DNA of 64,000 nt from a virus (Duplodnaviria; Heunggongvirae; Uroviricota; Caudoviricetes), in the IMG/VR virus record IMGVR_UViG_3300025859_000003, one strand, 5' to 3'. The notes beneath the pieces were generated by a model. That model had not been told where the DNA came from and searched no databases. It saw only the letters and a program-made list of their open reading frames with translations. A program made the translations under genes and the position numbers. Each line of letters begins with the position of its first letter. Position 1 is the stretch's first letter. Positions 5,908 through 59,862 of this stretch are shown one piece after another.

Positions 5908-6293
5908 TGACCGATCCCTCGCCCAAGAAGAGAAAGAAGTGGAAGGGCGGGAAGAAGAACCTCAAGGCCAACCGCTGGAGAAAGCAGGGACGTGCCTGCG
6001 CGTACTGCAAACGTCCAATGCCACTGGCTCACGCCACTCTTGATCACGTGTTTCCGCGGTCGAAGTCCAAGCATGAGAACCCTGACCGGGACGATAATCT
6101 CATCGTGGCTTGCTTCTTCTGCAACAACACACGCGGAGACATGGAGTTCGTCGCTTTCCTGAAGTTGATTGAACAGCTGAAGGCGGACAACAAGCTCGGC
6201 CCAACTTGGCACCTGAACAAGACAAAGTTACGAAAGACCTTGGGCTTAGCGAAACGTTTGGCCGATATGAGGTATCGACCTTTTCCGCACTGA
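5904..6293 (+). CDS. HNH endonuclease
   Basis: CAYCKRP...LDHVFPRSK...N...ACFFCNNTRGD: paired Cys plus His/Asn spacing of HNH nucleases; GTGA overlap with upstream gene. Confidence 0.8.
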   Translation: MMTDPSPKKRKKWKGGKKNLKANRWRKQGRACAYCKRPMPLAHATLDHVFPRSKSKHENPDRDDNLIVACFFCNNTRGDMEFVAFLKLIEQLKADNKLGPTWHLNKTKLRKTLGLAKRLADMRYRPFPH

Positions 6294-6294
6294 T

Positions 6295-6313
6295 GGCTAC
6301 AGAGTCTGCGACC
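6295..6313. repeat. degenerate copy of 21-bp palindrome (GGCTACAGAGTCTGCGACC)
   Basis: matches TGGCYGCAGAGTCTGCRGCCA family seen 10 more times. Confidence 0.6.
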
Positions 6314-6323
6314 ACAGCAGAAG

Positions 6324-6367
6324 GGCACCCTCGTCAGGAATCGAGGGTGCCCTAAGTCTGCTTTTTT
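6324..6367 (+). terminator. intrinsic terminator
   Basis: GGGCACCCTCG-loop-CGAGGGTGCCC hairpin followed by TGCTTTTTTA. Confidence 0.7.
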
Positions 6368-6414
6368 ACGGCCTAAGCAGATGTAGCCTTTTCTATTAGA
6401 AATGGAGGTTGTTC

Positions 6415-6876
6415 GTGTCTAACAAGAAAGAAGCCCCCGCCCCGGAGGGGGAACCGAAAGCCAAGCTTCCCCCCGATGTCGAGCAGTTCATCAACGACGA
6501 GATCAGCTATCTGCGGAAGATGGGCCTGGCCGGCGATCTTGAGGTCATGGCGGAGAGGGCGATGGAGCGCCTGAACCGCAAACATGAAGAGCTCAGGGAC
6601 CTCGAATCCGAGCTCGACATCGTTGAGTACGACATCAAGCAGAAGGACAAGGTCATTGACGAGTGGTGCAAGCCCCACCGCAAGATCCTGAGCCGGCTGC
6701 TGGTACTGGTCTTCAAGATCCGCAAGCCCTTCGACAAGTACTACGACGAGTTCGAAGAGCTGAAGAAAAAGAAGACCATCCTGGAGGCTCGTCGGGGAGC
6801 CCTTCTCGATGAGATTGATTCCGAAACCGATCTGGCCAAACGCGCAGCTGCGTGCCGCCGGGCAATGACCAGGTAG
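6415..6876 (+). CDS. coiled-coil protein
   Basis: Track ORF 6409..6876; GTG 6415 preceded by GGAGG; charged heptad-like sequence. Confidence 0.5.
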   Translation: MSNKKEAPAPEGEPKAKLPPDVEQFINDEISYLRKMGLAGDLEVMAERAMERLNRKHEELRDLESELDIVEYDIKQKDKVIDEWCKPHRKILSRLLVLVFKIRKPFDKYYDEFEELKKKKTILEARRGALLDEIDSETDLAKRAAACRRAMTR

Positions 6877-6886
6877 GAGAACAATC

Positions 6887-7702
6887 ATGGGTCGTTTGAC
6901 TGTCCACGTTCCTTTCAACGTGGGAGACCTTGTATTTGCTGCTGGTGTTGATGAACACCAGTACACCTGTGAGTGCGCGATGTGCAGCGGGTACGGCACC
7001 CTCAAAATACCGGAGGGCACGAAAGTCATAGGGGCCGAGGAAGAGGAAGGAGACTGGCTCGCAGACGACGAGGCAGAGTGCCCTGCTTGCGAAGGCTACG
7101 GCTCAGATGACGAGGAGGTTGAGATCCTGTTCCCGTGCCTGGTTGGCCGAATCTCGCGCATCACAGCTGACGTAACCGCGGATCTCGACGAAGAGAGTCC
7201 CGACGAGTACGAAGAGGTAATGGTAGGCATCCGTCACCTTGCCGTCGCTAACCTTGACGGAGAGTCCGAGATGTCGATGACCGAACAGATGATTCGGTTC
7301 TACCACGCACTCAAGGCCGGCGAGATCATGGACTTCAACACCGTGGTCAAAGGATCACCCACCACGGTGAGGGTGGACCGCATTCACAAGACCTACAAGC
7401 AGCTGTGTGAATACGTCTTGAAGGAGAACCTGGAAACCTTCAAGAAGATCCACGAGGATCTGACCAACCAGGAATACGAGATTCCGACCGTGGACCGGAT
7501 GGGCGCCATCCACGTCTGCAACGAAATCGTGGCCATCCAGGACATGATCCTGGGCATCTACCCGGAGCTCGCAAAGCTCACCCCCGGCTACAAGGCCAAA
7601 GGCAAGAAGACCAACAAGAAGACCGAAGGGAAGACGGAGAAGAAGCCGAACGAGGCCCTCATGGCTCTGTCTTCTGTAGAGGTCGAGGAGGCACTGTTTT
7701 GA
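6887..7702 (+). CDS. DnaJ-type CxxCxGxG zinc-finger protein, paralogue 1
   Basis: RBS AGGAGAACAATC; N-terminal CAMCSGYG ... CPACEGYG. Confidence 0.6.
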   Translation: MGRLTVHVPFNVGDLVFAAGVDEHQYTCECAMCSGYGTLKIPEGTKVIGAEEEEGDWLADDEAECPACEGYGSDDEEVEILFPCLVGRISRITADVTADLDEESPDEYEEVMVGIRHLAVANLDGESEMSMTEQMIRFYHALKAGEIMDFNTVVKGSPTTVRVDRIHKTYKQLCEYVLKENLETFKKIHEDLTNQEYEIPTVDRMGAIHVCNEIVAIQDMILGIYPELAKLTPGYKAKGKKTNKKTEGKTEKKPNEALMALSSVEVEEALF

Positions 7703-8280
7703 ACATCCAAGACGTCAAGCCAGGCGATCGGGTCTGGCTGATTCGAAAAGGCCTGTCAGTTGGGATCAAGCTGGTATGTCCTGATTGTCGTGGTGTAGGG
7801 TTCGCGGGAGACATCATGATCCCCTGCAACACCTGCGATGGCTATGAGTACATCCGCAAAGAGGTTCCCACCTTCGAGGTCGTTGGCGCTGTGAAGGTGC
7901 GCTCGGTGACGCACACCGGTGAACATGACGACCCGGTCGTCGAGATTCTGAGGCCGCCGCTCTTCCTGTTGGATGCCTACGGGAACAACGTGATCGAGAT
8001 GTGCAAGGATTACTGGGACGACTTCGAGAAGGGCAGGTCCCACGCAGGAGCCTACCCGCAGACAATCCGAGACCTCAGCCATCTGACGCTCACCTACGAA
8101 GAGGCCATCGAGCGTGCCAACGAGCTGACCAACTACCACATTCAGGACGCCTGTGACCAGGAGAAGACCGTACTCTATGACCGCCCGGAAGATGTATTCA
8201 GGCAGACGGCCGTTGGTCAGGCCCAGGCAGACACGGTTGAGATCTTCAAGGAAACAGCGATCGAAGAAGCCCTTTGTTAG
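7699..8280 (+). CDS. DnaJ-type CxxCxGxG zinc-finger protein, paralogue 2
   Basis: TTGA overlap start; GAGGAGG upstream; CPDCRGVG ... CNTCDGYE. Confidence 0.55.
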   Translation: MNIQDVKPGDRVWLIRKGLSVGIKLVCPDCRGVGFAGDIMIPCNTCDGYEYIRKEVPTFEVVGAVKVRSVTHTGEHDDPVVEILRPPLFLLDAYGNNVIEMCKDYWDDFEKGRSHAGAYPQTIRDLSHLTLTYEEAIERANELTNYHIQDACDQEKTVLYDRPEDVFRQTAVGQAQADTVEIFKETAIEEALC

Positions 8281-8290
8281 GAGAAAGGTG

Positions 8291-9031
8291 ATGTCAATAC
8301 GTGGAAGGCGGAGAAACTCCGACCATCAGAGATACACCTCGTACTTCATGAAGCAGCACGTTCACATGATCGCTCCTCGGACAAAGAGCGTGTCGATCGA
8401 CTGCAACACCTGTCACGGCACGGGCACGGATGGGTACTTCCAGCCGTGCTCCGAGTGTGACGGTGACGGCAAGAAGACCTACAACCTCACCCTGTACGAG
8501 TATGTCGGTGACGTGGAGATCGCCGGCTGCTCGGTCACCGCGGGAGGGAAGACCTACAGCGTTCGCTACTTCGATCTGTTCCACATTCCAGAGATGGTTC
8601 GAGCAGAGGAGTCGAAGCGGCGTTGGGATGCCATTGATGTAGGCCGCCGGCCTATGTCCGACGCCAACTGGTCCAGCAACATACCTGAGGACTGTCTGTT
8701 CTCATCCATCGGTCTCGCAATGGACGTCGCTTACGAGAACAACCTGGACATCCTCCAGGGTTTCACCAAGACGCAGGCGTTGGCCATACTCAAGTTGTTC
8801 GACGAGCATGAATCGTCAACCGCTACTCCATCGGTTGACTCTTCTGGCGCCTTGGTTCCGAAGGAGCTGCTGAGTGATCCTCCGGAGACGGTGGAGATGA
8901 CGCTGGGTGAATACCCGATGCTCACGTTTGAAACCTACTCACAGTCGATGCAAGGCAATGACCGCATCGTTACCGAGTCTGACTTCCGCAAGCGGCACGC
9001 TGACGTGAAGATCGAGACCGCTTTGACCTGA
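8291..9031 (+). CDS. DnaJ-type CxxCxGxG zinc-finger protein, paralogue 3
   Basis: Track ORF 8153..9031; ATG 8291 preceded by GGAGAAAGG and directly after previous stop; CNTCHGTG ... CSECDGDG. Confidence 0.55.
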   Translation: MSIRGRRRNSDHQRYTSYFMKQHVHMIAPRTKSVSIDCNTCHGTGTDGYFQPCSECDGDGKKTYNLTLYEYVGDVEIAGCSVTAGGKTYSVRYFDLFHIPEMVRAEESKRRWDAIDVGRRPMSDANWSSNIPEDCLFSSIGLAMDVAYENNLDILQGFTKTQALAILKLFDEHESSTATPSVDSSGALVPKELLSDPPETVEMTLGEYPMLTFETYSQSMQGNDRIVTESDFRKRHADVKIETALT

Positions 9032-9040
9032 GGAGAGAAC

Positions 9041-10117
9041 ATGGGATTCAAAATTGACAGCATGGTGTGCATCCATCTCCCTCGGTGGAAACAGATCGCA
9101 TTCTTCTGCGGTCAGTGTGCCGGTACCGGGTTCTCCGGTACAGGAACTTGTTTCAAGTGTAACGGCTCTGGTATTCGCACAGAGAGGTTGCAGTACCTGG
9201 TCTTTGGCGGCGTGGCCAAGATTACAGGCTTGTTCTCCATCCAGGGACAGACCACGTACACCATCGTCTATCCGTTCCTGCAGGGACTTCTCGACCACTC
9301 CAAGCAGGACACTCAGCAGATCATGGATGTATCGTCCGCGTTCTGGGAGAAGAATAAGGACTCTCAACAGAAGAGCCCGCCTGGAACGGTCACGATGCAG
9401 ATTCCGGAAAGTCAGGTGTTCCACACCTACAACGAGGCCATCCAGAACCTCACCAAGTGCAACAAAGAGGTAATCGACGAAGGCATCCGCCGGCACGGTG
9501 GCGTTCCCGGTATCTTTGAGGAGAACCCGGAGAAGATCAAGCCGAACACGACATCCCGAACCGGCGGTACGCCGTACAGCGGTAAGCCGTATGGAGAGCC
9601 GCGGGTCAATGACTTGTTGTGGGCAGTCGAGTACCACGGCAATGTCCAGAAGTTCTTCCGGTGTCCGCAGTGCAAAGGCGAGGCCAAGAAGGCCAACGTC
9701 AAGTGCTCCAGGTGCCACGACTCAGGGCACATTGCGATGCACATCCCGCAGTACATCCTGAGGGGGCAGGTACGTGTTATCGGAACTATGTCCGGTGACT
9801 ACCTCGACCTTGAGGCAGCTCCGATTCCCTACGTGGATGACGACACCCACGCCCTGATCACCAAGAACTACTGGGTCAATCACGCCGAGGGCACGGACAA
9901 CCGCATCCCCAAGAACACGATTGCCACCTGGGAACATCTGTTCTACACGGTGGACGGGGCCAAAGAGTGGCTCGCCAAGAAGAACGAGACCATGCTCAGG
10001 CAGTGGTGCGAGGATCACCACGACATCCTCCCTGTGGGGATGGACGGCGAGGTTCTTGAAGGGTTCAAGCCCAAGGTCGGCCCCAAGCCCGTACCCATCG
10101 AAGCCTGCCTCTGCTAG
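9041..10117 (+). CDS. DnaJ-type CxxCxGxG zinc-finger protein, paralogue 4 (largest)
   Basis: RBS AGGAGAGAAC; CGQCAGTG ... CFKCNGSG N-terminally and second pair CPQCKGEA ... CSRCHDSG mid-protein. Confidence 0.6.
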   Translation: MGFKIDSMVCIHLPRWKQIAFFCGQCAGTGFSGTGTCFKCNGSGIRTERLQYLVFGGVAKITGLFSIQGQTTYTIVYPFLQGLLDHSKQDTQQIMDVSSAFWEKNKDSQQKSPPGTVTMQIPESQVFHTYNEAIQNLTKCNKEVIDEGIRRHGGVPGIFEENPEKIKPNTTSRTGGTPYSGKPYGEPRVNDLLWAVEYHGNVQKFFRCPQCKGEAKKANVKCSRCHDSGHIAMHIPQYILRGQVRVIGTMSGDYLDLEAAPIPYVDDDTHALITKNYWVNHAEGTDNRIPKNTIATWEHLFYTVDGAKEWLAKKNETMLRQWCEDHHDILPVGMDGEVLEGFKPKVGPKPVPIEACLC

Positions 10118-36935: not shown

Positions 36936-37247
36936 CTACTCTTTCTTTGTTTTGGCTCGACGCCGACGTTCCAACTCGGCCACGATCAAGGCACCGGCGC
37001 GAATAAGGTCCCGCTCGGGATCCTTGGGCTTCCACCACTTCCAATCCCATGGCCAGAAGCGTTTCAAGATCGCCTCGAATGACACAGGTGAAATGGCCCC
37101 CGTGTTGACTGCGTAGAGGCCAGCGGCGATGGCCATCTCGCCATCCTTGTGTTGGTTGTCGTGGTGGTCGGTCCAGCCCTCTACGTTCTTCTGGCGTTCA
37201 CGCTCCGCGGCGATGTCGGCCAGTACTGCTGCAGTTTCGCTACTCAT
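36936..37247 (-). CDS. hypothetical protein
   Basis: Track ORF to 37304; start MSSETA. Confidence 0.45.
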   Translation of the reverse strand: MSSETAAVLADIAAERERQKNVEGWTDHHDNQHKDGEMAIAAGLYAVNTGAISPVSFEAILKRFWPWDWKWWKPKDPERDLIRAGALIVAELERRRRAKTKKE

Positions 37248-37530
37248 GTTTTGACCTTTCGAGTTCATCCAGATACTTGAGGAGCATTTTCTCCCCAAGC
37301 TCATTCTTGGCGGTGATAGTTACGATCGCTTTGGATGGGTCGTCGGGATCCGTTCTTACGTCGTACTCAAAAGGTGGGACCCTGGAAAAGTAATCGACCA
37401 AAACCCTCTCAATGGCGCCCTGGACCTCACGCAGATCCTCTTCCACGGAGAGCTCAAACAGCGGTCTCCCGACGATCTTCTTGATTTCTTCCTTGAATTG
37501 ATGAGCAAGCCTTTGGACGTTTTCTTTCAT
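37240..37530 (-). CDS. hypothetical protein
   Basis: 96 aa. Confidence 0.45.
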   Translation of the reverse strand: MKENVQRLAHQFKEEIKKIVGRPLFELSVEEDLREVQGAIERVLVDYFSRVPPFEYDVRTDPDDPSKAIVTITAKNELGEKMLLKYLDELERSKHE

Positions 37531-37599
37531 GGTTATTCCTTTTGAACTAAGAGAAAAGGCCCGAAGGCCTAAATTCTCTCCATCTGCTTAGACCACACA

Positions 37600-37624: not shown

Positions 37625-39010
37625 CTAAGCCGCGATGTTCTTGTCCTCCCATTTCTTGTTGAGAGCCGTGCGGATGCAGATCTCCTGGAAACTGGCCGGC
37701 GTGATGTCTTCGTAGGACCTGGCCATCTCCTCGATCTTTTCCGCGGAGATCATGTCCCCACAGATCATCTGAGCCATCTGCAGTCTCCCCTCGTACGGCA
37801 GCTCGCCGAGTTCAACGACGCGGTCGACACGTCCTGGCCGAGAGCCGATCTCCTCGGTGGACCCTCCGCCCAGCGCAGGATCGAGGAGCTCAACGTTGTT
37901 GGTGGTTATGAACAGCAGAGTACCGTCGGTACGGTCTACGCCATCAATCAGGTTCAGTAGACAATCGAACGTTACGCCCTGCACGTTTTGCGGGGTAGCG
38001 ATGTTCTTGCGACCGTGGAAGATACCGTCGATGTCCTCGATCAGGATGATCCTCTTACCGTACAGCTGGCAGCGGATGCGCCAGGCATTGGACAGGTACT
38101 GGTTGTCCATCGAGGCCAGGTCGAAGACGTAGATCGGAAGATCGAACTTCTGTCCGATGGCCCGAACGAAGCTGGATTTACCAGTCCCAGGTCTACCGTA
38201 AAATACGTAGCCGCGATGCCACGGGATGTTGCGATCACGGTACCAATCCTGGTTATCGATCCAGAACTCAATCTCCCTCACCACTCGTTCCTGGTTGGCG
38301 TCAAGAATCAGCGACCGGAACGCCTCAGCACCCTCGTTCTGACCGACGTCATCCCACTTGAAGTCGATCGGCAACTGAGCCTTCATGTCGAAGCCAACAC
38401 CGCCGGAAGCCTTGGTATGACTGCTCGGAGACGCCACCATATTTTCAGGGATCGGCCCGGAGTTATGGTCGGTCATCATTCTCAGGCTGCCGACAACGTA
38501 ATCGACGAAGAAGTTGGAGTCCTTGTCAAACTGTGTATCTTCTTCGAGGTCGCGGTTCAGGACCTTTAGCCCTTCTTCGACGAAATGATGGAACGGAAAC
38601 GTCCAACGGATAAACCGAATCATGGTGTGACTGTGTTGGTTCACTCCTTCTTTTGGCTCCGTCCTCGACGGCTGAAACCATACAGGACGCCACCCGATCC
38701 AAAACAACGTGGACTGCTCACTGAGACTTTCGTAGGCCACATACCGCCACTTCCGTTTGGAGCGTAGCCAGGCGAGGAATGAGCTGTACGCCCTGATACC
38801 AAACTTGCGGCGCCGGCCGTTTCGACCCAAGTAGGTCTGGATGCCGGTGCTCAGCTTGTAGTCTGAAACCTGCTGCGGAACGATGATGAAAGACAGGGCC
38901 TTGATCATCATCTGCCTGGTCTTCCCCCAGATAGATGCGAGGTAACCCAGAACCAAAAGGCCGGTAGCGCCAATGGCGGCCTCAAGGCCGCCTATCTGCG
39001 GAAATTCCAT
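37625..39010 (-). CDS. BCS1-like membrane-anchored AAA+ ATPase
   Basis: N-terminal TM (GATGLLVLGYLASIWG); IPWHRGYVFYGRPGTGKSSFVRAIGQKFDLPIYVFDL (Walker A), ILIEDIDGIF (Walker B); RGYL.YGPPGTGKSSF context typical of BCS1 family. Confidence 0.7.
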   Translation of the reverse strand: MEFPQIGGLEAAIGATGLLVLGYLASIWGKTRQMMIKALSFIIVPQQVSDYKLSTGIQTYLGRNGRRRKFGIRAYSSFLAWLRSKRKWRYVAYESLSEQSTLFWIGWRPVWFQPSRTEPKEGVNQHSHTMIRFIRWTFPFHHFVEEGLKVLNRDLEEDTQFDKDSNFFVDYVVGSLRMMTDHNSGPIPENMVASPSSHTKASGGVGFDMKAQLPIDFKWDDVGQNEGAEAFRSLILDANQERVVREIEFWIDNQDWYRDRNIPWHRGYVFYGRPGTGKSSFVRAIGQKFDLPIYVFDLASMDNQYLSNAWRIRCQLYGKRIILIEDIDGIFHGRKNIATPQNVQGVTFDCLLNLIDGVDRTDGTLLFITTNNVELLDPALGGGSTEEIGSRPGRVDRVVELGELPYEGRLQMAQMICGDMISAEKIEEMARSYEDITPASFQEICIRTALNKKWEDKNIAA

Positions 39011-39018
39011 TGCTCCCC

Positions 39019-39291
39019 CTAGAAAGGCTTCTCTGAGAGATTAGCCAGAGACATTTCCTTGTCGAGGCTCTTGACGTAGTCGGGGTGAACCTGGTCTACG
39101 ACGGCCCTGAGTTCAAGCTTGTAGTAGTTACCGTCCTCACCTTCGAAGATGACTTCTCCGAGGCATCCCTTGGCGTTGCTACTGCGGATAACACCGGCGA
39201 CCAGGATGGCCAGATCGCCGGTGTCCGCGACTTTGCTGATATCGAGGGTGCCTTTCAAGATGAACCTTTTGATCTTCACGATGTTTATCAC
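39019..39291 (-). CDS. hypothetical protein
   Basis: 90 aa. Confidence 0.45.
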   Translation of the reverse strand: MINIVKIKRFILKGTLDISKVADTGDLAILVAGVIRSSNAKGCLGEVIFEGEDGNYYKLELRAVVDQVHPDYVKSLDKEMSLANLSEKPF

Positions 39292-39305
39292 GAGAGTTCC
39301 TTCTG

Positions 39306-40004
39306 TTACTTGACCTTGATGAGATTGACCTTCGCGTTCACGGACGCGTGTCCCTCACGTTGAGTGTTTTGCTCCGCTGGCGGCTCCATTGATTCTGCGA
39401 TCAACAGGGCTCCGCGGAGAAGCTCTTTCAGGCGTTGCCTGTTTTCGGGCATCTTGTCGATGTCTCCGATCGTCTTTCCGATGTCTGCCAGGCCTTCGGA
39501 GAGGATGGTCTCGATGGCCATGAACTTGCCCTCCATCCGTGCCGCGCTGCGGTGGGCATCGATCTCAAGAACGTTGTCCAGCGGATTCTTCCTGCCGGAA
39601 TGCTTGCGAGGGAACTTTTCGGACTTGGCCTTCCCCTTCTCTTTGATCTTCTTGGGGTAGACCTTTCCACTCATGGTCCTTTTGACGTAACTCTCGGATC
39701 CACCGGTGGCCTTCACTACTTCCCTTGCCGTAGCGTTCGGGTGCTCTTTGGTGTAGGCCTGGATCTTTCTCTTCATCGCACCACGCTTGGTGACTTGCCG
39801 GGATCGGACTCGGGCGTAGGATTTCGATAGAAGGTGGGCGAACGTCTTCCTCGTGGCCCACACGTACGCATCAGACGAGCCGACGGACTCGGCCACCTGC
39901 CTTGCCGACCAATCAGGGTACTGGTTCTGCTTCGCGACGATTTTCTCTGCGACAGACCCAGTCTCGGGCAAGGCCACTTCAGTTTCTTGCATCGTTTCTG
40001 GCAT
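39306..40004 (-). CDS. basic protein with two HTH-like segments
   Basis: WSARQVAESVGSSDAYVWATRK and ATAREVVKATGGSESYVKRTM; Lys/Arg-rich. Confidence 0.45.
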   Translation of the reverse strand: MPETMQETEVALPETGSVAEKIVAKQNQYPDWSARQVAESVGSSDAYVWATRKTFAHLLSKSYARVRSRQVTKRGAMKRKIQAYTKEHPNATAREVVKATGGSESYVKRTMSGKVYPKKIKEKGKAKSEKFPRKHSGRKNPLDNVLEIDAHRSAARMEGKFMAIETILSEGLADIGKTIGDIDKMPENRQRLKELLRGALLIAESMEPPAEQNTQREGHASVNAKVNLIKVK

Positions 40005-42821: not shown

Positions 42822-43436
42822 TTATTCCTGGTTGTCGTTCTGCAGACTCAGCCGCTTGAGTTCCTTGCGGTTGAGCTGCTTTTCGGGGCGGAAGACGAGT
42901 TCCTTGCGACCACCGATGACGGTAGCGAAGATGTTCTCCTTCCATTCCCCTTTGAACCAACAACCGTTGATCTTCTTCACGCCCTTACCCGGCTTGAGCT
43001 GCGGATGCTGACGGCGGTTAGCGACCTTGTTGGGATGAGTCTCGCGGAGAATTCCGTGCTCATCCACGTAGAAGTCGCGAAGGCTGTACCACCGGCCATG
43101 GGGCCCGAGCGGCTCCCCGTTCTCGTTGTACGTGATCTTGGTGGAGACCATGTACTTGAGATGCTCACGGAGATGCCATCCGGCGACGTTACGGATGTCG
43201 GCCTGAGAACAGATCTCGGACCAGACATCGTCCCAATAGCGACCGCAGTTCTTGCGGAGCATACCGTAGAGCGGCGCCAAGCGGTCATTGAACCCCTTGG
43301 TAGCCTTCATCTTCATCGGTTCGCGGATCGGAAGATCCTCGTCCGGAAGACGGTTCCTGCGACAGTCCTTCTGGATGTCCCAGTCACTACGGGTGCGGGC
43401 CGTGTTGATGATCAGTCTGGCGTAATCTTTGCGCAT
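42822..43436 (-). CDS. hypothetical protein
   Basis: 204 aa; AGAGGAG RBS. Confidence 0.5.
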   Translation of the reverse strand: MRKDYARLIINTARTRSDWDIQKDCRRNRLPDEDLPIREPMKMKATKGFNDRLAPLYGMLRKNCGRYWDDVWSEICSQADIRNVAGWHLREHLKYMVSTKITYNENGEPLGPHGRWYSLRDFYVDEHGILRETHPNKVANRRQHPQLKPGKGVKKINGCWFKGEWKENIFATVIGGRKELVFRPEKQLNRKELKRLSLQNDNQE

Positions 43437-43489
43437 GACATGACTCCTCTAGTTTCACTAAAGTGTCATGGCACACCTCCTTTCGTTTA

Positions 43490-44038
43490 TCAGCACCCCG
43501 TAAGGTAGGGCACTACAGACATCATCTCTCGAAGCATCTCTGTGTACGACTTAGGCGGGGGAGGAACGTACTTCACGTAGGCGTTCTCATCCTCATCCCA
43601 TTGGTACCTGGTCATTGATTCCTTGTTGATCTCCTTCGGGATGTCGTCCTCATCCCGGAATACCATCAGTTTACCGTCGAAGGTCCTCAGTACCCAGAGC
43701 CAGTCGTCATAGACGTAGAACCACCGTCCCGTGTGGATCATCGCCAATTCTTTGAGTTCAAGGTAGCAGTACTTCCACCACTTCTTCCAACACTTCACCC
43801 TATCGGGCTTGGAGAAGATGGCGGCGAGCAGGTAGAGCCACTTGGGCAACCAAGGGAAGATATTCTTCTCTTCCCAGTAGGCGATCTCAGCACCACACCA
43901 GATACCCAGGCCGGCCTTTGCCTGGTTACGGTGGCTGGAGGCTCTGATGCCAAGCTTGTTGCGGTGAACGATGATGCTCAGCGGATACGGGTGCTCAGAA
44001 TCGTCCCAGTCGAAGATTATCGCGTCTTCCATTCCCAT
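43490..44038 (-). CDS. Trp-rich hypothetical protein
   Basis: 182 aa; TTTTAGGAGCCGCC ATG. Confidence 0.5.
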   Translation of the reverse strand: MGMEDAIIFDWDDSEHPYPLSIIVHRNKLGIRASSHRNQAKAGLGIWCGAEIAYWEEKNIFPWLPKWLYLLAAIFSKPDRVKCWKKWWKYCYLELKELAMIHTGRWFYVYDDWLWVLRTFDGKLMVFRDEDDIPKEINKESMTRYQWDEDENAYVKYVPPPPKSYTEMLREMMSVVPYLTGC

Positions 44039-53789: not shown

Positions 53790-55496
53790 ATGGCGGATTG
53801 GTTTGTTGACCTTAGTGCTGCCAACAACGGCGATGGAACTGACGGAGCACAGGCTGCTGCTCCTGGTGGTGTTGGCGCATGGAACGTGCTAACTGCGACT
53901 GAGTTGCTCAGCGTGAGCGCAGGCGACAAGATCTGGATTCGGCGTACTGACGGCTCAGGTGGATCCAAGAAGACGCTCTCGTTCAAGGACGGTACGCTCA
54001 ATAGTCGCATCGAGTTCAACGGTTGGCCCGTAGACGCTGACGACGAGCACTACGCCGCCGCTCAGGCGACTACAAACACCGTCGCTGCGACATGGGACAG
54101 TGACCCCAGCGCGTTCGTGGTAATCAACCCGTTTGGCGCGGCGGCAACGGTCAAGCACCGTGTCTATCGCAGGCTGTACTGGGACGAGACAGCCGCCGCG
54201 GCGAATGAGCCCTTTGCCACGACCTGGTACGGATCTCTGGAGGTACGGTGGAACAAGTGCCAGGCCCGCCGCGCCACGTCCGACGCCCCGAAATGCAACC
54301 TTTGGCCTGATACCGGAAGACTGGAACTTGATGACGTCCATGTGATCGGCCAGCGCCCAGCTACGGGCTTCGGCAGCAATTGCGCCCTGTACACAGGTGG
54401 ACTGACTGGGTCTGCGGTCATTCGTGCCCGGTTTACGTTTACGGCGGCAGGATCTGAGAGCATGTACATCGGTGGCGAGGCCTACGACTCTTACGTTGAA
54501 GTTCTGGAGTGGAACGACGCTGGCACCAGATTCGTGAGACCCGGATATACCTCGGCCAACACCACATTAGGTGGTTTCGGTTCGGCACGCGCCGTCTTCA
54601 CAACAGATGATGATGTTGTCGGGATGCTTCCGGCTGGCGGCGTCATGTATATCAACGGCAGCGCGAACTCGCGCAGTATTGTTGTGCGCAATCTGGACTT
54701 TGAGCACGCAAATTCACCGGCACCGGATTCAACAACATACAACCTTGGGACAACGGCCGTCCGCTCGCTTATCCTGGAAAATATACGATTTCCGGCGGGC
54801 GCCTCGACGCACATAGACGCGGACGCAGAATATGGAAACAACAACCTTATCGGAAAAAACATCTGGATTGATACGACTAAAATCTTGAAAGCGGTTGATC
54901 CGAATAGCTACTGCGGAAAAGGCCAGCAGATACACCTGACACAGTTGAACGGCACCAACGCATGGTTCAGGTACGTCAACGGCGTTACCGCTCAATCCTC
55001 GAATATCAGCCGTGTCGGTGGTCACGCAAACGGCATCCTGGTAGAGACAATAAAGGCCGGTTCGTACTGGGATGATAAAGGGTTCAGTGCCGGTGGTCTA
55101 TTCTACTCGGAACGCGAAGGTTATGAGGCACTGGTGTTCCCGCGTTTCGGGCTTGCGTTCCCCGTAAACCAGACAATCACGCTGTATTTCGCCACGGCTT
55201 TCTGGGACGGACGCGAGAGCAAGCTCAACATCTGGGTTGAGGCCGACGTCTACCGCGACGCCAGCGGTTACCACCGCAAGATTTACGATTCCCGTAAGCT
55301 GCCTGGTGATGGCTTGATCGCTGACGGGTCAACATGGAACAACATCATGGGCTACAACGCGTGGCGCATTGAGTTGCCCATCACGATCAAGCAGGATGAC
55401 ATCGTGCGGGTCCGGTTCTACGTCGCTGATACTTTCCGTGACGGCGGCGGTAACCAGAACGTCACAATCTTCGATCCGGCGATTACGCTTGCGTAA
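53790..55496 (+). CDS. large putative tail/baseplate structural protein
   Basis: 568 aa; GGAAAGGGG RBS. Confidence 0.5.
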   Translation: MADWFVDLSAANNGDGTDGAQAAAPGGVGAWNVLTATELLSVSAGDKIWIRRTDGSGGSKKTLSFKDGTLNSRIEFNGWPVDADDEHYAAAQATTNTVAATWDSDPSAFVVINPFGAAATVKHRVYRRLYWDETAAAANEPFATTWYGSLEVRWNKCQARRATSDAPKCNLWPDTGRLELDDVHVIGQRPATGFGSNCALYTGGLTGSAVIRARFTFTAAGSESMYIGGEAYDSYVEVLEWNDAGTRFVRPGYTSANTTLGGFGSARAVFTTDDDVVGMLPAGGVMYINGSANSRSIVVRNLDFEHANSPAPDSTTYNLGTTAVRSLILENIRFPAGASTHIDADAEYGNNNLIGKNIWIDTTKILKAVDPNSYCGKGQQIHLTQLNGTNAWFRYVNGVTAQSSNISRVGGHANGILVETIKAGSYWDDKGFSAGGLFYSEREGYEALVFPRFGLAFPVNQTITLYFATAFWDGRESKLNIWVEADVYRDASGYHRKIYDSRKLPGDGLIADGSTWNNIMGYNAWRIELPITIKQDDIVRVRFYVADTFRDGGGNQNVTIFDPAITLA

Positions 55497-55504
55497 GGCA
55501 GTCC

Positions 55505-57016
55505 ATGGCCATACGTGCGATCAATGACGGTAGTACGGCCACCACAAACATTGTGGTGAACGGCGTGAATATCGGCGATGCAGACGCCGGGTATCCTACG
55601 TTTGCAGACGCACTGGCTGCCGCCTCAGCAGGTGACAAGCTGGTATGGACTGGTCCGCAAATCCTAATTGGCACGTTTACGATTTCGGTTGATCAGTTGG
55701 AGATCACGGTTGCGGATAACGTTAGGTACACGACACACGATTTCTCAACCGGCGTCCGCATCAGCAGCACAACTGGCACGGTGTTCACGTTCAATCAGGC
55801 CGGGGCACAGGGAACGTACATCAGAAATCTGGTGCTTGAGGCTACCGTAGCCGGTGGTGATACCGTACTGAACACCGGCACGAACACAGTAGTCCTCGAA
55901 GCTTGCCTGTTGAAGAATAGGGATGGTGGCGCCGCCGTACGTAGCTCGGACGGCCCTGTTGCTGTCAATCACTGTTTCATAGAGATCGGTGATGGTTCAC
56001 GTGGTGTAGTGAAGCCTGATACGGCCGATAGTTCGGCCAGGGCACGCAATACAGTGGTCCTGGCGGCACATGATGACGCCTTGGCAGCCTTTGAGGGAGG
56101 AGCCACGCTAGGACGTGAAGTTTACGTCGGTAACTGTTACGCCGGAGACGCCAGTGGTGTCACCACAGCAGCAGCGCGATACACGAACTGCGCCGAAAGT
56201 GTCAATGTAGTTGAAGACGGGTACAACGCGTCCAGTGCGAACGACGCTCCCGGAACAGTAACGTACCAGTCGTTGGATGCCAGCGATCTATTCGTCGATA
56301 CGACAATCGGCAGCTACGATCTTGACTGGAAGAACCTGCTTGACTCCCGCGTGTACGTCGGCGGCGAGAGTAACTTCTCAGGCACGTACGTCGACCTGAA
56401 CAACGATGTCCGCTCAACCGATGCCCCTTGGTTTATCGGGGCAGTCACCCCGTACCTGTACGGCGATGGCGCAGGTTTGACGCACTATGCCGAGGGCATT
56501 TTGCCCAGCGGTGAAGACTTTGAGGATCTATCCGACGACGCCGTTCGCAATTTCTTGTTGGAGTGGTTCCAACCGGACCCGCTGTGGACCGTTTCGATAC
56601 CGTTCGGCGGGTGGTTGGTGCCAGGACAGGCCAATCCGCAGCCATGGGAGAGCAACTACGAAGGCTTTGTACCTTCAGTTGAAGGAACCGTTCCCGAGGT
56701 TCATGCCGACATTCAGCAGGTAACCGACGAGTACATCGAGTTCTTCAAGCCCGATCCTGTCGGCACGGTTACAATACCGTTTGGCGGATGGTTGAACCCA
56801 GGTGTGCCGATCACGCCTTTTACTGTCGCATACTGGGAAGGTGGGGAGATTGATCCAACGATCATCAACCCCATATTCGAGAATGCAGAAGAGGAACGGC
56901 ACCTGGTTGAACTTTATCCGCCGGCCTTTGGCAGCCCCAGCAGTTATCCTATTGTCGGCAACGACATTGTAGGCTCGTTACTCGTTGGTACACGATCGTC
57001 GAAAATAGTCAGGTAA
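55505..57016 (+). CDS. right-handed beta-helix (pectate-lyase-like) tailspike/depolymerase candidate
   Basis: repetitive N/G/T/V beta-helix-like segments (NTGTNTVVLEACLLKNRDGGAAVRSSDGPVAVNHCFIEIGDGSRGVV). Confidence 0.5.
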   Translation: MAIRAINDGSTATTNIVVNGVNIGDADAGYPTFADALAAASAGDKLVWTGPQILIGTFTISVDQLEITVADNVRYTTHDFSTGVRISSTTGTVFTFNQAGAQGTYIRNLVLEATVAGGDTVLNTGTNTVVLEACLLKNRDGGAAVRSSDGPVAVNHCFIEIGDGSRGVVKPDTADSSARARNTVVLAAHDDALAAFEGGATLGREVYVGNCYAGDASGVTTAAARYTNCAESVNVVEDGYNASSANDAPGTVTYQSLDASDLFVDTTIGSYDLDWKNLLDSRVYVGGESNFSGTYVDLNNDVRSTDAPWFIGAVTPYLYGDGAGLTHYAEGILPSGEDFEDLSDDAVRNFLLEWFQPDPLWTVSIPFGGWLVPGQANPQPWESNYEGFVPSVEGTVPEVHADIQQVTDEYIEFFKPDPVGTVTIPFGGWLNPGVPITPFTVAYWEGGEIDPTIINPIFENAEEERHLVELYPPAFGSPSSYPIVGNDIVGSLLVGTRSSKIVR

Positions 57017-57372: not shown

Positions 57373-58659
57373 ATGAGTTTCAATCCGCTCACAGACATCC
57401 TGGCAGCCGGCGGAATCAATTTCAAAGGTGCTTGGAACGCTGACGCCAACACTCCCATCCTGACGAGCGGGATGGGTACAGCCGGCGATTACTACATCGT
57501 CGGGGAAGCCGGAACCACCGTCCTCGACGGTATCGGTGTTTGGGACGTCAATGAATGGGCAGTATTCAATGGGACGGTCTGGCAGAAGGTTAGCAGCGAG
57601 GACCAGTCTCACCTCTCCTTCCCCGAGCCGATTGTTTTTAGGCCAGGCGGACCATCTTTAGATGAACCAGGGGTATACGGAACCTGGCTCGCGGTTATGG
57701 CCTTCGTGGGGACATTGAACAGCCCGGTTGAAGTTGTTTTTGACTCATCGCTGGCGCCGTGTGTGGTACCTACAGGTGTTCACACCTTTCCTTCCGGGTC
57801 CAGGTTTCGCGGCCGGCACGAGGGTATCAATACCACCGTCAGCTTCGATGACGGGGCCTCTTTGGTTGGGGTCAACACTTTCGAGCGCGGGCTGTCACTG
57901 GTCTCTAACAGCACATCCCCGATCCTCTCGGTCTCAGGGGCGGCATCAAATAGGTTCAGGTTCCAGCGGGATGTAACGATCACCTGCTTGAACACTGGGC
58001 CCTTCATAAGGGTTTCAGGAGCGGGCTCTTCAGCCAGGGTTGTATTGGCTGAAGCCGCTATGGTCTCTGGAGTAGCAACAATCCTGGACGTCGCCACTAA
58101 CGCCGTCGCAACTCTTGATTGCTTGGTGTCGGCCACTATAGGGCAGAACACCCTGGGGGTAGATGGCTCGTCGGCCCTGACGTTGAACCTGGTTGCCAAC
58201 ACCATTTTGAATCCAACCCAGACAGGGATTTTAGGGCTGTACACAGTCCTTCTTTCTCAGCGGGCAACCCAGGTTCTTTTCGACCCCTCTGTGCTATCTG
58301 GGCAATTAGCCGCCGACAATACCCAGGACGCTATCGACGAGCTGACTCTTAAGCACAACAACAAGCTGGCTCAGACAATTTCTTCACCTGGAACAGTAAA
58401 CATCTCTGCGTTAAGCGCGAGGTTGATCCTTGTAGACATGACATCCGCCGGGTCAACACCGTTGGACATCAATTTGCCAGCAATATCCGCCGATTCCGGA
58501 CCCTGGATGTTCAAGAGGCTGGACTCTAACACGGCTTCTTCGGTGAAGATTTACGGGACAGGCGGCAACACCATCGACTTGCTGCCGTTCCAGGTTCTTA
58601 GTGGTTGGCCGGCCTCGATGCACTTGGTATCCGGTCCGAGTAACTGGTACCGAATCTAG
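57373..58659 (+). CDS. tail fibre protein
   Basis: N-terminus INFKGAWNADANTP...GTAGDYYIVGEAGTT...WAVFNGTVWQK resembles conserved tail-fibre N-terminal domain. Confidence 0.55.
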   Translation: MSFNPLTDILAAGGINFKGAWNADANTPILTSGMGTAGDYYIVGEAGTTVLDGIGVWDVNEWAVFNGTVWQKVSSEDQSHLSFPEPIVFRPGGPSLDEPGVYGTWLAVMAFVGTLNSPVEVVFDSSLAPCVVPTGVHTFPSGSRFRGRHEGINTTVSFDDGASLVGVNTFERGLSLVSNSTSPILSVSGAASNRFRFQRDVTITCLNTGPFIRVSGAGSSARVVLAEAAMVSGVATILDVATNAVATLDCLVSATIGQNTLGVDGSSALTLNLVANTILNPTQTGILGLYTVLLSQRATQVLFDPSVLSGQLAADNTQDAIDELTLKHNNKLAQTISSPGTVNISALSARLILVDMTSAGSTPLDINLPAISADSGPWMFKRLDSNTASSVKIYGTGGNTIDLLPFQVLSGWPASMHLVSGPSNWYRI

Positions 58660-58695: not shown

Positions 58696-59862
58696 ATGAG
58701 CTATCTTTCATGGCAGGCCGTGAAGGCCTATATCGATGCGTCAATCGGAGCAGGTTTTCCGCTCTACGGACCCGACGATGGGTCACCGGCGTACGCTTTT
58801 GACGGCGGCACGATCCCTAACTCGGTCAACGGAGGCATGCGCTGGGACACGGTGTCAAAACAGGGACCGGCCTTATTCGATTTGAACGGGGCCATGCAGA
58901 TCAGGATTACCGCGGGTGGCGTGGCCATTCCGAATCATCTAGATATCCTCGGGGATGGGCCTCCAGCGGCTCCTCCCGCCGGTTATTCACGCGTCTACGG
59001 TGTGGATGAGCATGATCATGACCGTCTCGAAGTTATGGACCGGGACGGTACGCAGATCCGCCTCGCCCGTGACGTTCTGATCACGGCTAAAAACGTGGCC
59101 GGAGTCCAGGTCGACAAAGGCAAGATGGTCTACATCAATGGTGCGGTTGGTGCTAGCGGCGTACCCACGGTAGCACTTGCCCAGGCCAATCTGGACGTGA
59201 CAGCGAACAACGTCCACGTTGCCATGGAGGACGTCGCGCACAACGCTTTCGGTTCGTTCATGAAGATCGGGGTTATCAGGGGTCTTGATACGGCGACCCC
59301 CGGTTGGTCCGACGGAACAACGTTGTTCCTGGACTCCGCGGTGGCCGGAGGCCTGACATCTACAGAGCCGTTACCCCCCTACCCCGTGGTCTTTGTGGGA
59401 ACGGTGATCAGCTCTCACGCTATCAACGGTTTGATCCAGTTCAATATCGGCACCCGCATCAACCCGTACAAGCCCGGCCTGTACCCAACACCGGCCGGGC
59501 GGGTTGCGCTGACAGCGGACGTCGACGATCTCGCCCTGATTTCCTACCCCTCGTCTGCGGTTCAGTTCTACATCGATCCTGATGCCGATGGATGGGTCAT
59601 CAACAGCATTGTTAGCGACGCAAAGACCCGGCTGATCCGGCTCACGAATGTTGATACTGTCTTTGGGTTCGTGATCGCTGACGAAGGTACCGGTACGGCG
59701 GCGAACAGAGTCATTACCGGGCAGGGAGGACCTGTTACAGTGCCCCCTCTGGCGACGGCAATCCTGGTCTATGACGTGGCGGACTCGCGCTGGAGACTGG
59801 ACACTGTTGCCTCTGGTGCCGCTGGCGGCTTTCCGGAAGCGGTCGGGTACATGGGATGGTAA
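58696..59862 (+). CDS. putative tail fibre/receptor-binding protein
   Basis: 388 aa, G/A/V/T-rich. Confidence 0.45.
   Translation: MSYLSWQAVKAYIDASIGAGFPLYGPDDGSPAYAFDGGTIPNSVNGGMRWDTVSKQGPALFDLNGAMQIRITAGGVAIPNHLDILGDGPPAAPPAGYSRVYGVDEHDHDRLEVMDRDGTQIRLARDVLITAKNVAGVQVDKGKMVYINGAVGASGVPTVALAQANLDVTANNVHVAMEDVAHNAFGSFMKIGVIRGLDTATPGWSDGTTLFLDSAVAGGLTSTEPLPPYPVVFVGTVISSHAINGLIQFNIGTRINPYKPGLYPTPAGRVALTADVDDLALISYPSSAVQFYIDPDADGWVINSIVSDAKTRLIRLTNVDTVFGFVIADEGTGTAANRVITGQGGPVTVPPLATAILVYDVADSRWRLDTVASGAAGGFPEAVGYMGW

What the first reader, a model, noticed from the sequence alone, without database searches (positions are those of the whole stretch)
37625..40004. Phage-encoded BCS1-like membrane AAA+ ATPase with an adjacent basic double-HTH protein
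The 37625-39010 product has a single N-terminal TM helix and an AAA core whose Walker A context (IPWHRGYVFYGRPGTGKSSF), Walker B (ILIEDIDGIF) and spacing resemble the BCS1 family. BCS1 translocates folded proteins across membranes. BCS1-like ATPases are unusual in phages and could act in virion protein export, DNA transport, superinfection exclusion or a defence-type role. Downstream-transcribed neighbours are a 90-aa protein (39019-39291) and a 232-aa Lys/Arg-rich protein with two HTH-like segments (39306-40004).
Basis: partly seen in the sequence, partly recalled or inferred. Interest (0 to 1): 0.6.

Follow-up and report, generated by a model that had tools for sequence, protein, structure and literature searches.

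The report
Phage membrane-anchored Bcs1-like AAA ATPase
A large, uncultured phage encodes a membrane-anchored ATPase built like mitochondrial Bcs1, the machine that pushes a folded protein across a membrane; such genes were already reported in jumbo phages, this one is a divergent branch, and its cargo is unknown.

The parts
37625..39010 (-). Gene for the 461-aa Bcs1-like membrane AAA ATPase (stop codon at 37625-37627)
38927..38986 (-). Residues 9-28: predicted single TM anchor, the start of one continuous helix spanning 8-42. Predicted topology is N-out/C-in.
   Evidence: KD19 maximum of 1.68 at residues 9-27; C-flank charge +3 and N-flank -1; family means +1.7 and -0.4. AF2 helix 8-42. hhalign aligns it to the Bcs1 TM segment. 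Membrane insertion itself is inferred, not shown.
38519..38884 (-). Residues 43-164: Bcs1-like middle ('Bcs1-specific') domain, with element order strand A, helix I, hairpin B/C, strands D, E, F, helix II. An extra polar hairpin (117-126) sits where Bcs1 has its seal loop.
38375..38488 (-). Residues 175-212: variable, low-complexity linker. It is an insertion relative to Bcs1, lying between the two extra beta-strands (169-173 and 213-215) that precede the AAA core.
   Evidence: pLDDT 41-54 for residues 185-205. This region is gap-rich and variable in the family alignment and is skipped in the hhalign match to Bcs1.
37628..38374 (-). Residues 213-461: Bcs1-type AAA module. Walker A is 272-279 (nt 38174-38197); Walker B with the 'ED' signature is 321-328 (nt 38027-38050); sensor-1 is N371; arginine fingers R391 and R394 are at nt 37829-37840.
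   Evidence: Invariant or near-invariant across 64 family members. 33% identity and 2.3 A rmsd to the Bcs1 AAA crystal structure 6u1y. A single-stretch 172-bit profile match to Bcs1, against about 94 bits per p97 domain.
37548..37570 (-). Terminator-like hairpin AGGCC-TTCG-GGCCT followed by a T-rich tail, in the 94-bp gap after the ATPase stop codon
   Evidence: Consensus scan and the sequence itself. The total count of such sites in the region is not above chance (8 found, 5.6 expected), so this is only suggestive.
39019..39291 (-). Upstream 90-aa acidic protein of unknown function, probably co-transcribed (8-bp gap, GGGGAG before the ATPase ATG). Not a conserved partner.
   Evidence: ORF. 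No Pfam, PHROG, NCBIfam or PADLOC hits. No homologue near the ATPase in related loci. Junction sequence.
39306..40004 (-). Upstream 232-aa basic protein with two repeated HTH-like segments (about residues 27-52 and 87-112). A likely DNA-binding protein, but not a conserved partner of the ATPase.
   Evidence: pI 9.9, net charge +16. Internal repeat at E 2e-6. phrog_14131 'DNA binding protein' at 1e-5; HTH_31 at 0.0056, below cut-off. Absent near the ATPase homologue in other loci.

Best explanation
The 461-aa product is a phage-encoded homologue of the mitochondrial folded-protein translocase Bcs1, with the complete three-part architecture. Shown: an N-terminal hydrophobic helix, a Bcs1-like middle domain, and a Bcs1-type AAA module with intact catalytic residues. 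Inferred: the helix anchors the protein in the host inner membrane with the N-terminus outside and the bulk in the cytoplasm. This is the same orientation as Bcs1, whose bulk lies in the matrix. The subunits form a ring whose middle domains cap a cytoplasm-facing chamber. A folded client protein of phage or host origin, probably not Rieske, enters that chamber. Concerted ATP binding and hydrolysis then contract the chamber and push or insert the client into or across the inner membrane. One possibility is membrane-proximal virion or envelope-related assembly, as Iyer et al. 2021 proposed for jumbo-phage BCS1 orthologues. The gene sits at the end of a densely packed leftward block of small early/middle-type genes. 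It has no conserved operon partner, so it probably acts as a stand-alone machine.
Confidence: 0.4

Rival explanations
1. It is a membrane-tethered, chambered chaperone or assembly factor that does not translocate anything, working like B. subtilis YjoB. The ring would hold or remodel a specific folded client, such as a virion or replication-complex component, at the cytoplasmic face of the membrane without moving it across.
Against: YjoB has no TM or amphipathic helix. This family keeps an N-terminal hydrophobic helix, on average more hydrophobic than that of true Bcs1. By sequence the protein is closer to Bcs1 (E 2e-27) than to YjoB (4e-14).
Confidence: 0.3
2. It is a host-function mimic. The phage copy would substitute for, or hijack, the cellular homologue that Planctomycetota carry on their chromosomes, keeping a host membrane-biogenesis step running or redirecting it during infection.
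For: 217 genome hits to full-length homologues, nearly all in Planctomycetota and including finished isolate genomes. The host copies are stand-alone genes among housekeeping-like neighbours.
Against: The window protein is only 32-35% identical to host copies. In the NJ tree it sits in a deep clade of large viral contigs, not inside a host clade (no support values). The phage's host is unknown. The function of the host family is also unknown.
Confidence: 0.12
3. It has a conflict role, such as superinfection exclusion, anti-defence or an IetA-like defence ATPase, acting at the membrane against incoming phage or host immunity proteins.
For: Weak similarity to IetA/IteA models (PADLOC 1e-10; NCBIfam 2e-8). 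The location among small early-type genes is typical of takeover and conflict genes.
Against: The NCBIfam score is 33.6 against a cut-off of 510, and the matches cover only the AAA core. No IetS-like protease or other defence partner is adjacent. No partner is conserved. The gene is conserved across distant large phages and in host chromosomes outside defence islands.
Confidence: 0.1
4. It is a generic classical AAA unfoldase of the FtsH, p97 or PAN type whose resemblance to Bcs1 is superficial.
For: Many AAA proteins match the C-terminal half. NCBIfam lists PAN and FtsH models first.
Against: Those matches cover only about residues 240-450 and score far below family cut-offs. There is no aromatic pore loop 1, no protease domain, and an 'ED' Walker B. 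The N-terminal half is homologous to BCS1_N, and the best structural matches are full-length Bcs1.
Confidence: 0.03

Closest known systems
Mitochondrial Bcs1/BCS1L (heptameric AAA translocase of the folded Rieske Fe-S protein; PDB 6sh3, 6uko, 6ukp, 8tp1, 9gs2)
   Same: It has the same three-part architecture and predicted orientation: TM helix, middle domain with the same order of secondary-structure elements, and a single AAA module. It shares the 'ED' Walker B, RPGR arginine fingers, the WY..R.IPW.RGY..G.PGTGKS signature and a degenerate pore loop 1. Bcs1 is the best sequence and structure match in the PDB.
   Different: The setting is a phage, not a mitochondrion. The N-domain is not detected by Pfam BCS1_N. 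There is a variable insertion of roughly 30-40 aa before the AAA core. Pore loop 1 is 2 residues shorter. The DDR Rieske-contact motif is replaced and the E and R of EWR are absent. The seal loop is polar, variable and lacks the conserved motif. Oligomer state and client are unknown.
BCS1 orthologues of jumbo phages (Iyer et al. 2021, PMC7824862), for example Tenacibaculum phage pT24 BAV39403, Serratia phage Moabite QDB71291, Brevundimonas phage Bajun UTC29678 and Caulobacter phage CcrColossus
   Same: These are also phage-encoded and about 410-490 aa, with an N-terminal TM helix, a Bcs1-type N-domain and an AAA module. They occur in very large phage genomes, and their function is likewise untested.
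   Different: They share only 25-33% identity, confined to the AAA half. Their N-domains match canonical BCS1_N directly (94-99%), whereas the window's family is more remote. In the NJ tree they group with eukaryotic Bcs1, while the window's family forms a separate clade.
Bacillus subtilis YjoB (PDB 7w42; soluble hexameric AAA chaperone with a Bcs1-like NTD)
   Same: A prokaryotic relative with a Bcs1-like N-domain, an 'ED' Walker B AAA module and an internal chamber. It aligns end to end with the model.
   Different: YjoB has no membrane anchor, forms a hexamer and is restricted to Bacillales. Its sequence match is weaker (E 4e-14 against 2e-27 for Bcs1).
Chromosomal homologues in Planctomycetota (for example Aeoliella sp. 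SH292, Stieleria marina K23_9, Zavarzinella formosa DSM 19928), annotated only as 'AAA family ATPase'
   Same: They belong to the same full-length family, at 32-35% identity over about 95% of the length, with the same N-domain and motifs.
   Different: They are cellular, stand-alone chromosomal genes, and they form two derived clades separate from the window's viral clade. They are uncharacterised.

Membership tests
Bcs1 family (architecture and homology) | Single N-terminal transmembrane anchor, with the bulk of the protein on the matrix- or cytoplasm-equivalent side | tested here: met
   KD19 of 1.68 at residues 9-27; family median 1.6 against 1.25 in canonical Bcs1. The positive-inside charge bias favours N-out/C-in. 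AF2 predicts one long helix spanning 8-42. This is a prediction only; membrane insertion has not been shown.
Bcs1 family (architecture and homology) | Bcs1-specific middle domain (sheet I strands A, F, E, D; connector hairpin B, C; helices I and II) | tested here: met
Bcs1 family (architecture and homology) | AAA module of the Bcs1 clade: 'ED' Walker B, RPGR arginine fingers, non-canonical pore loop 1 | tested here: met
   E325 and D326 are conserved in 62/64 and 64/64 members; R391 and R394 in 64/64. The pore-loop region reads DLASMDNQYLSNAW, with no aromatic-hydrophobic-Gly motif. 33% identity and 2.3 A rmsd to 6u1y.
Bcs1 family (architecture and homology) | Seven-stranded AAA beta-sheet, with two extra N-terminal strands linking to the middle domain | tested here: inconclusive
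   The model has two strands (169-173 and 213-215) before the AAA core, at the positions hhalign equates with the Bcs1-specific strands. Model coordinates could not be inspected to confirm that they join the same sheet. A disordered insertion separates the two strands.
Bcs1 family (architecture and homology) | Homo-heptameric ring with two vestibules | not testable with these tools
   No multimer prediction or experiment was available.
Bcs1 family (architecture and homology) | Conserved seal loop forming a hydrophobic constriction (mouse M121, M123, V124, L128; DLxTGxPWE context) | tested here: not met
   The equivalent loop (residues 113-129) reads QPSRTEPKEGVNQHSHT. Across the family it is 7-31 residues long and 75% polar, with no conserved motif.
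Bcs1 orthologue in function (Rieske Fe-S protein translocase) | EWR and DDR motifs that contact the Rieske Fe-S domain (PMC12219900) | tested here: not met
   Bcs1's D25/D22/R16 columns correspond to N60 / mixed / E32+D10 in the family, and to N303-Q304-Y305 in the query. Pore loop 1 is 2 residues shorter. The E and R of EWR are absent, though the alignment in that stretch is less secure.
IetA/IteA anti-phage ATPase (IetAS system) | Score above the family cut-off, and an adjacent IetS serine protease | tested here: not met
   NCBIfam NF042959 scores 33.6 bits against a cut-off of 510. The PADLOC IetA match (1e-10) covers the AAA core only. No protease is present among the neighbours.
FtsH / PAN / Cdc48-type classical AAA unfoldases | Aromatic pore loop 1, family-specific N or C domains, and a score above the family cut-off | tested here: not met
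   Scores are 37-55 bits against cut-offs of 500-1000. There is no pore-loop aromatic motif. Structural matches cover only the AAA core.

The most novel reading that the evidence does not exclude
This lineage, found in large phages and Planctomycetota, could be a prokaryotic/viral sister group of mitochondrial Bcs1 that works as an ATP-driven, Tat-independent route for moving folded proteins into or across the bacterial inner membrane. Phages would use it to export or insert a folded client of their own. It would also bear on where the supposedly eukaryote-specific Bcs1 translocase came from.
Probability: 0.25. Interest if true: 0.8.

Novelty: new variant of a known kind. Interest (0 to 1): 0.45.

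Why it matters
Bcs1 is one of very few machines known to move a fully folded protein across an energised membrane, and it is usually treated as a mitochondrial invention that replaced Tat. Complete TM, middle-domain and AAA homologues in large phages were noted in silico in 2021. This work shows a second, more divergent lineage that spans large viral contigs and Planctomycetota chromosomes. If any of these proteins translocates folded clients, bacteria and their phages would have an unrecognised ATP-driven export or insertion route. The missing Rieske-contact and seal motifs suggest the scaffold has been adapted to another cargo. Identifying that cargo would clarify both phage biology and the general mechanism. 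As it stands, the finding is a well-supported annotation of a known kind of phage gene, not a new system.

Tried and rejected
1. Pfam BCS1_N (PF08740): no hit for the query, and it does not appear among the families listed for the 80 family members scanned. Homology of the N-domain had to be shown by profile-profile and structural comparison instead.
3. Conserved-neighbour search across 8 viral and 52 host loci: nothing beyond close-relative synteny. The high-count clusters were alternative-frame ORFs overlapping the ATPase itself. tblastn of 20 window proteins against related loci found only the two genes at 42822-44038 to be syntenic in the closest relative.
4. Defence assignment (IetA/IteA, TRIP13): far below cut-offs, AAA core only.
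6. tblastn of the 568-aa and 644-aa ORFs against isolate phages gave no match, and Pfam and PHROG were blank for most large ORFs. Phage identity therefore rests on a tail-fibre-like N-terminal module, the gene organisation, and a syntenic IMG/VR relative.
7. Literature searches for Bcs1 together with Planctomycetes or bacterial homologues found nothing relevant.
8. The phage's host could not be determined, and no tRNAs were found in the window.

Full report
OBSERVATION. All three are on the minus strand. The transcription order is therefore 232 aa, then 90 aa, then the ATPase, with 14-bp and 8-bp gaps, so the two small genes are upstream of the ATPase and not 'downstream-transcribed' as written. 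A GGGGAG Shine-Dalgarno-like motif precedes the ATPase ATG. A terminator-like hairpin (AGGCC-TTCG-GGCCT followed by a T-run) lies in the 94-bp gap after its stop codon. This is only a consensus match, and the number of such sites in the region is not above chance. The quoted Walker A and Walker B strings are present, and Pfam AAA matches at 3.5e-14. The 232-aa protein is basic (pI 9.9, net +16). It carries two related HTH-like segments (internal repeat E 2e-6; weak HTH_31 and PHROG DNA-binding hits).

IS IT A PHAGE? The window corresponds to a 64-kb JGI metagenome contig. The identical ATPase is found on 13 contigs from several samples, the longest 195 kb. The region consists of long one-directional runs of small genes with few database matches, plus a dCTP deaminase, a 3'-5' exonuclease, a HAD phosphatase, a NUDIX protein and a metallophosphatase. 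A 428-aa protein at 57373-58659 shares an N-terminal module with tail-fibre and minor-tail proteins in 75 phage records. A syntenic relative whose ATPase is 61% identical lies on a 194-kb IMG/VR viral contig. Other large ORFs have no match in isolate phages. The window is therefore very probably part of a large and highly divergent tailed phage. Its host is unknown.

WHAT THE PROTEIN IS: THE AAA HALF. By sequence, the best solved-structure match is Bcs1 (E 2e-27, query residues 218-442). That is nine to ten orders of magnitude better than the next family, VCP-like at 6e-18. A profile built from 64 full-length homologues gives a single-stretch 172-bit match to Bcs1, against about 94 bits for each p97 domain. 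The family has the Bcs1/YjoB-specific 'ED' Walker B (E325 in 62/64 members, D326 in 64/64). It also has an invariant sensor-1 Asn and invariant RPGR arginine fingers. The pore-loop-1 region (DLASMDNQYLSNAW) has no aromatic-hydrophobic-Gly motif. These are the features published for Bcs1 (PMC7994207 and PMC9565160). The AlphaFold model is confident (pLDDT 87.9), and its AAA domain superposes on the Bcs1 AAA crystal structure at 2.3 A with 33% identity.

WHAT THE PROTEIN IS: THE N-TERMINAL HALF. Pfam BCS1_N does not hit the query, and it is not among the families listed for 80 family members scanned. Three other lines of evidence support homology.
1. Profile-profile comparison restricted to the N-terminal parts (query 1-165 or 1-185 against Bcs1 1-225 or 1-228) gives Prob 94%, P 1.3e-7 with one family alignment, and Prob 97%, P 1e-10 with a second, independently gathered one. 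Without the TM helix the values are P 1.7e-5 and 4.8e-6. Fifty-two shuffled or reversed controls gave P of 0.025 or higher.
2. The modelled domain (residues 43-164, pLDDT 88-97) has the published order of elements: strand A, helix I, hairpin B/C, strands D, E, F, helix II.
The N-terminal hydrophobic helix (residues 9-27, KD 1.68) is on average more hydrophobic across the family than proven Bcs1 anchors (median 1.6 against 1.25). Its flanking charges predict N-out/C-in, which is the Bcs1 orientation.

WHERE IT DIFFERS FROM BCS1. The loop corresponding to Bcs1's hydrophobic seal loop is polar, varies from 7 to 31 residues across the family and lacks the DLxTGxPWE motif. The DDR motif, which together with EWR contacts the Rieske Fe-S domain (PMC12219900), is replaced by N-x-E/D, and pore loop 1 is two residues shorter. 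The E and R of EWR are also absent, although the alignment in that stretch is less secure. A disordered, variable insertion of about 30-40 residues separates the two extra strands that precede the AAA core. This is therefore not a Rieske-translocase orthologue. It is the same scaffold, with a different and unknown client.

HOW COMMON, AND IS IT NEW? The claim that such ATPases are unusual in phages is wrong. tblastn finds the AAA half in 164 phage genomes, mostly jumbo phages, and several are already annotated as BCS1 or 'mitochondrial chaperone'. Three that I examined (pT24, Moabite, Bajun) have a TM helix plus an N-domain that matches canonical BCS1_N at 94-99% probability. Iyer et al. 2021 (PMC7824862) explicitly report BCS1 orthologues in all three jumbo-phage groups, and they propose membrane-proximal assembly and translocation of folded proteins. 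I found no experimental study. What is less obvious is that the window's protein belongs to a separate, more divergent lineage. About 75 full-length relatives were found in the first search. The N-domain alone retrieves 214 representative clusters, almost all about 430-500 aa with the domain at the extreme N-terminus. Six relatives lie on viral contigs of 28-219 kb. There are also 217 genome hits, nearly all in Planctomycetota and including finished isolate genomes. In a rough NJ tree without support values, this lineage is separate from eukaryotic Bcs1 plus the jumbo-phage BCS1s. The window protein falls in a deep clade of viral-contig sequences, and the Planctomycetota form two derived clades.

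NEIGHBOURS. Neither the 90-aa nor the 232-aa protein has a counterpart within about 8 kb of the homologue in the closest relative or in any other locus. Only the genes at 42822-43436 and 43490-44038 are syntenic in the closest relative. A clustering of all ORFs in 8 viral and 52 host loci found no conserved partner. Host copies are stand-alone genes among ordinary planctomycete genes. The 'adjacent double-HTH protein' is therefore real but incidental.

MECHANISM. Shown: the architecture, intact catalytic motifs, conservation, and homology to Bcs1 in both halves. Inferred: inner-membrane anchoring with N-out/C-in topology; ring assembly with a capped cytoplasmic chamber; and ATP-driven handling of a folded client that is probably not Rieske. 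My preferred reading, at 0.40, is Bcs1-like insertion or translocation of a folded client at the inner membrane. The main rival, at 0.30, is a membrane-tethered YjoB-like chaperone that does not translocate, which the unconserved seal loop favours. Lesser rivals are mimicry of the host function (0.12), a conflict or defence role (0.10; the IetA/IteA matches are far below cut-off), and a generic AAA unfoldase (0.03; effectively refuted).

VERDICT. This is a real and well-supported feature. The claims about rarity, gene order and neighbour linkage are not. It is a divergent variant of an already-described class of phage genes whose function remains experimentally open. Interest is moderate.

Noticed in passing
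Loci L092-L171 (for example L092 Aeoliella sp. SH292 at 6001-7365; L097 Stieleria marina; L167 Zavarzinella formosa): Planctomycetota of three orders carry a chromosomal, stand-alone, full-length homologue (TM helix, Bcs1-like N-domain and AAA module), annotated only as 'AAA family ATPase'. There are 217 genome hits and no conserved neighbour. In a rough NJ tree these copies form two derived clades inside a mostly viral and metagenomic radiation, which hints at exchange between viruses and hosts. The literature searches turned up no description of this family.
   Followed up: partly
Loci L147, L148, L155, L157, L159, L164, L165: A few full-length homologues sit in MAG bins labelled Methanoregula, Methanofastidiosum, 'archaeon', Bacteroidetes, Aquaspirillum and Alcaligenaceae, several on contigs of 120-490 kb. 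In the NJ tree they cluster with viral contigs, so they may be mis-binned phage genomes or prophages rather than genuine cellular genes.
   Followed up: no
window 36936-37304 (-): A 122-aa protein matches the C-terminal ~95 residues of at least nine different PHROG families of unknown function at E 1e-20 to 1e-30. This looks like a widespread phage domain fused to varied N-termini. Its ORF overlaps the upstream ORF 37240-37530 by 65 nt, and gene callers use a shorter start.
   Followed up: no
window 8153-9031 (+) and 9041-10117 (+): Two adjacent proteins each have a DnaJ-type CXXCXGXG zinc-finger hit below the Pfam cut-off. They may be a tandem pair of zinc-finger, chaperone-like proteins.
   Followed up: no
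window 57373-58659 (+): The N-terminal ~70 residues are 47-56% identical to tail-fibre, minor-tail or endosialidase-chaperone-annotated proteins in 75 phage records. This is the clearest virion-gene signal in the window. The neighbouring large ORFs (53790-57016 and 58696-59862) have no database match at all.
   Followed up: partly
L001 3250-4851 and 9928-11541 (194-kb IMG/VR contig, the closest relative): The related phage encodes a class-I glutaminyl/glutamyl-tRNA-synthetase-like protein and a Ro60/TROVE-vWA protein within a few kb of its Bcs1-like ATPase. Both gene types are typical of very large phages.
   Followed up: no
window 37548-37570 (-): A short GC hairpin with a TTCG loop and a T-rich tail lies directly after the ATPase stop codon, suggesting the ATPase closes a transcription unit. 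This is a consensus match only, and the count of such sites in the region is not above the shuffled expectation.
   Followed up: partly
L026, L036, L042, L043 and other GVMAG loci: Giant-virus (NCLDV) metagenome-assembled genomes in IMG/VR also encode AAA proteins that match the Bcs1-like AAA core at 25-36% identity. Whether they have the N-terminal Bcs1 domain was not examined.
   Followed up: no
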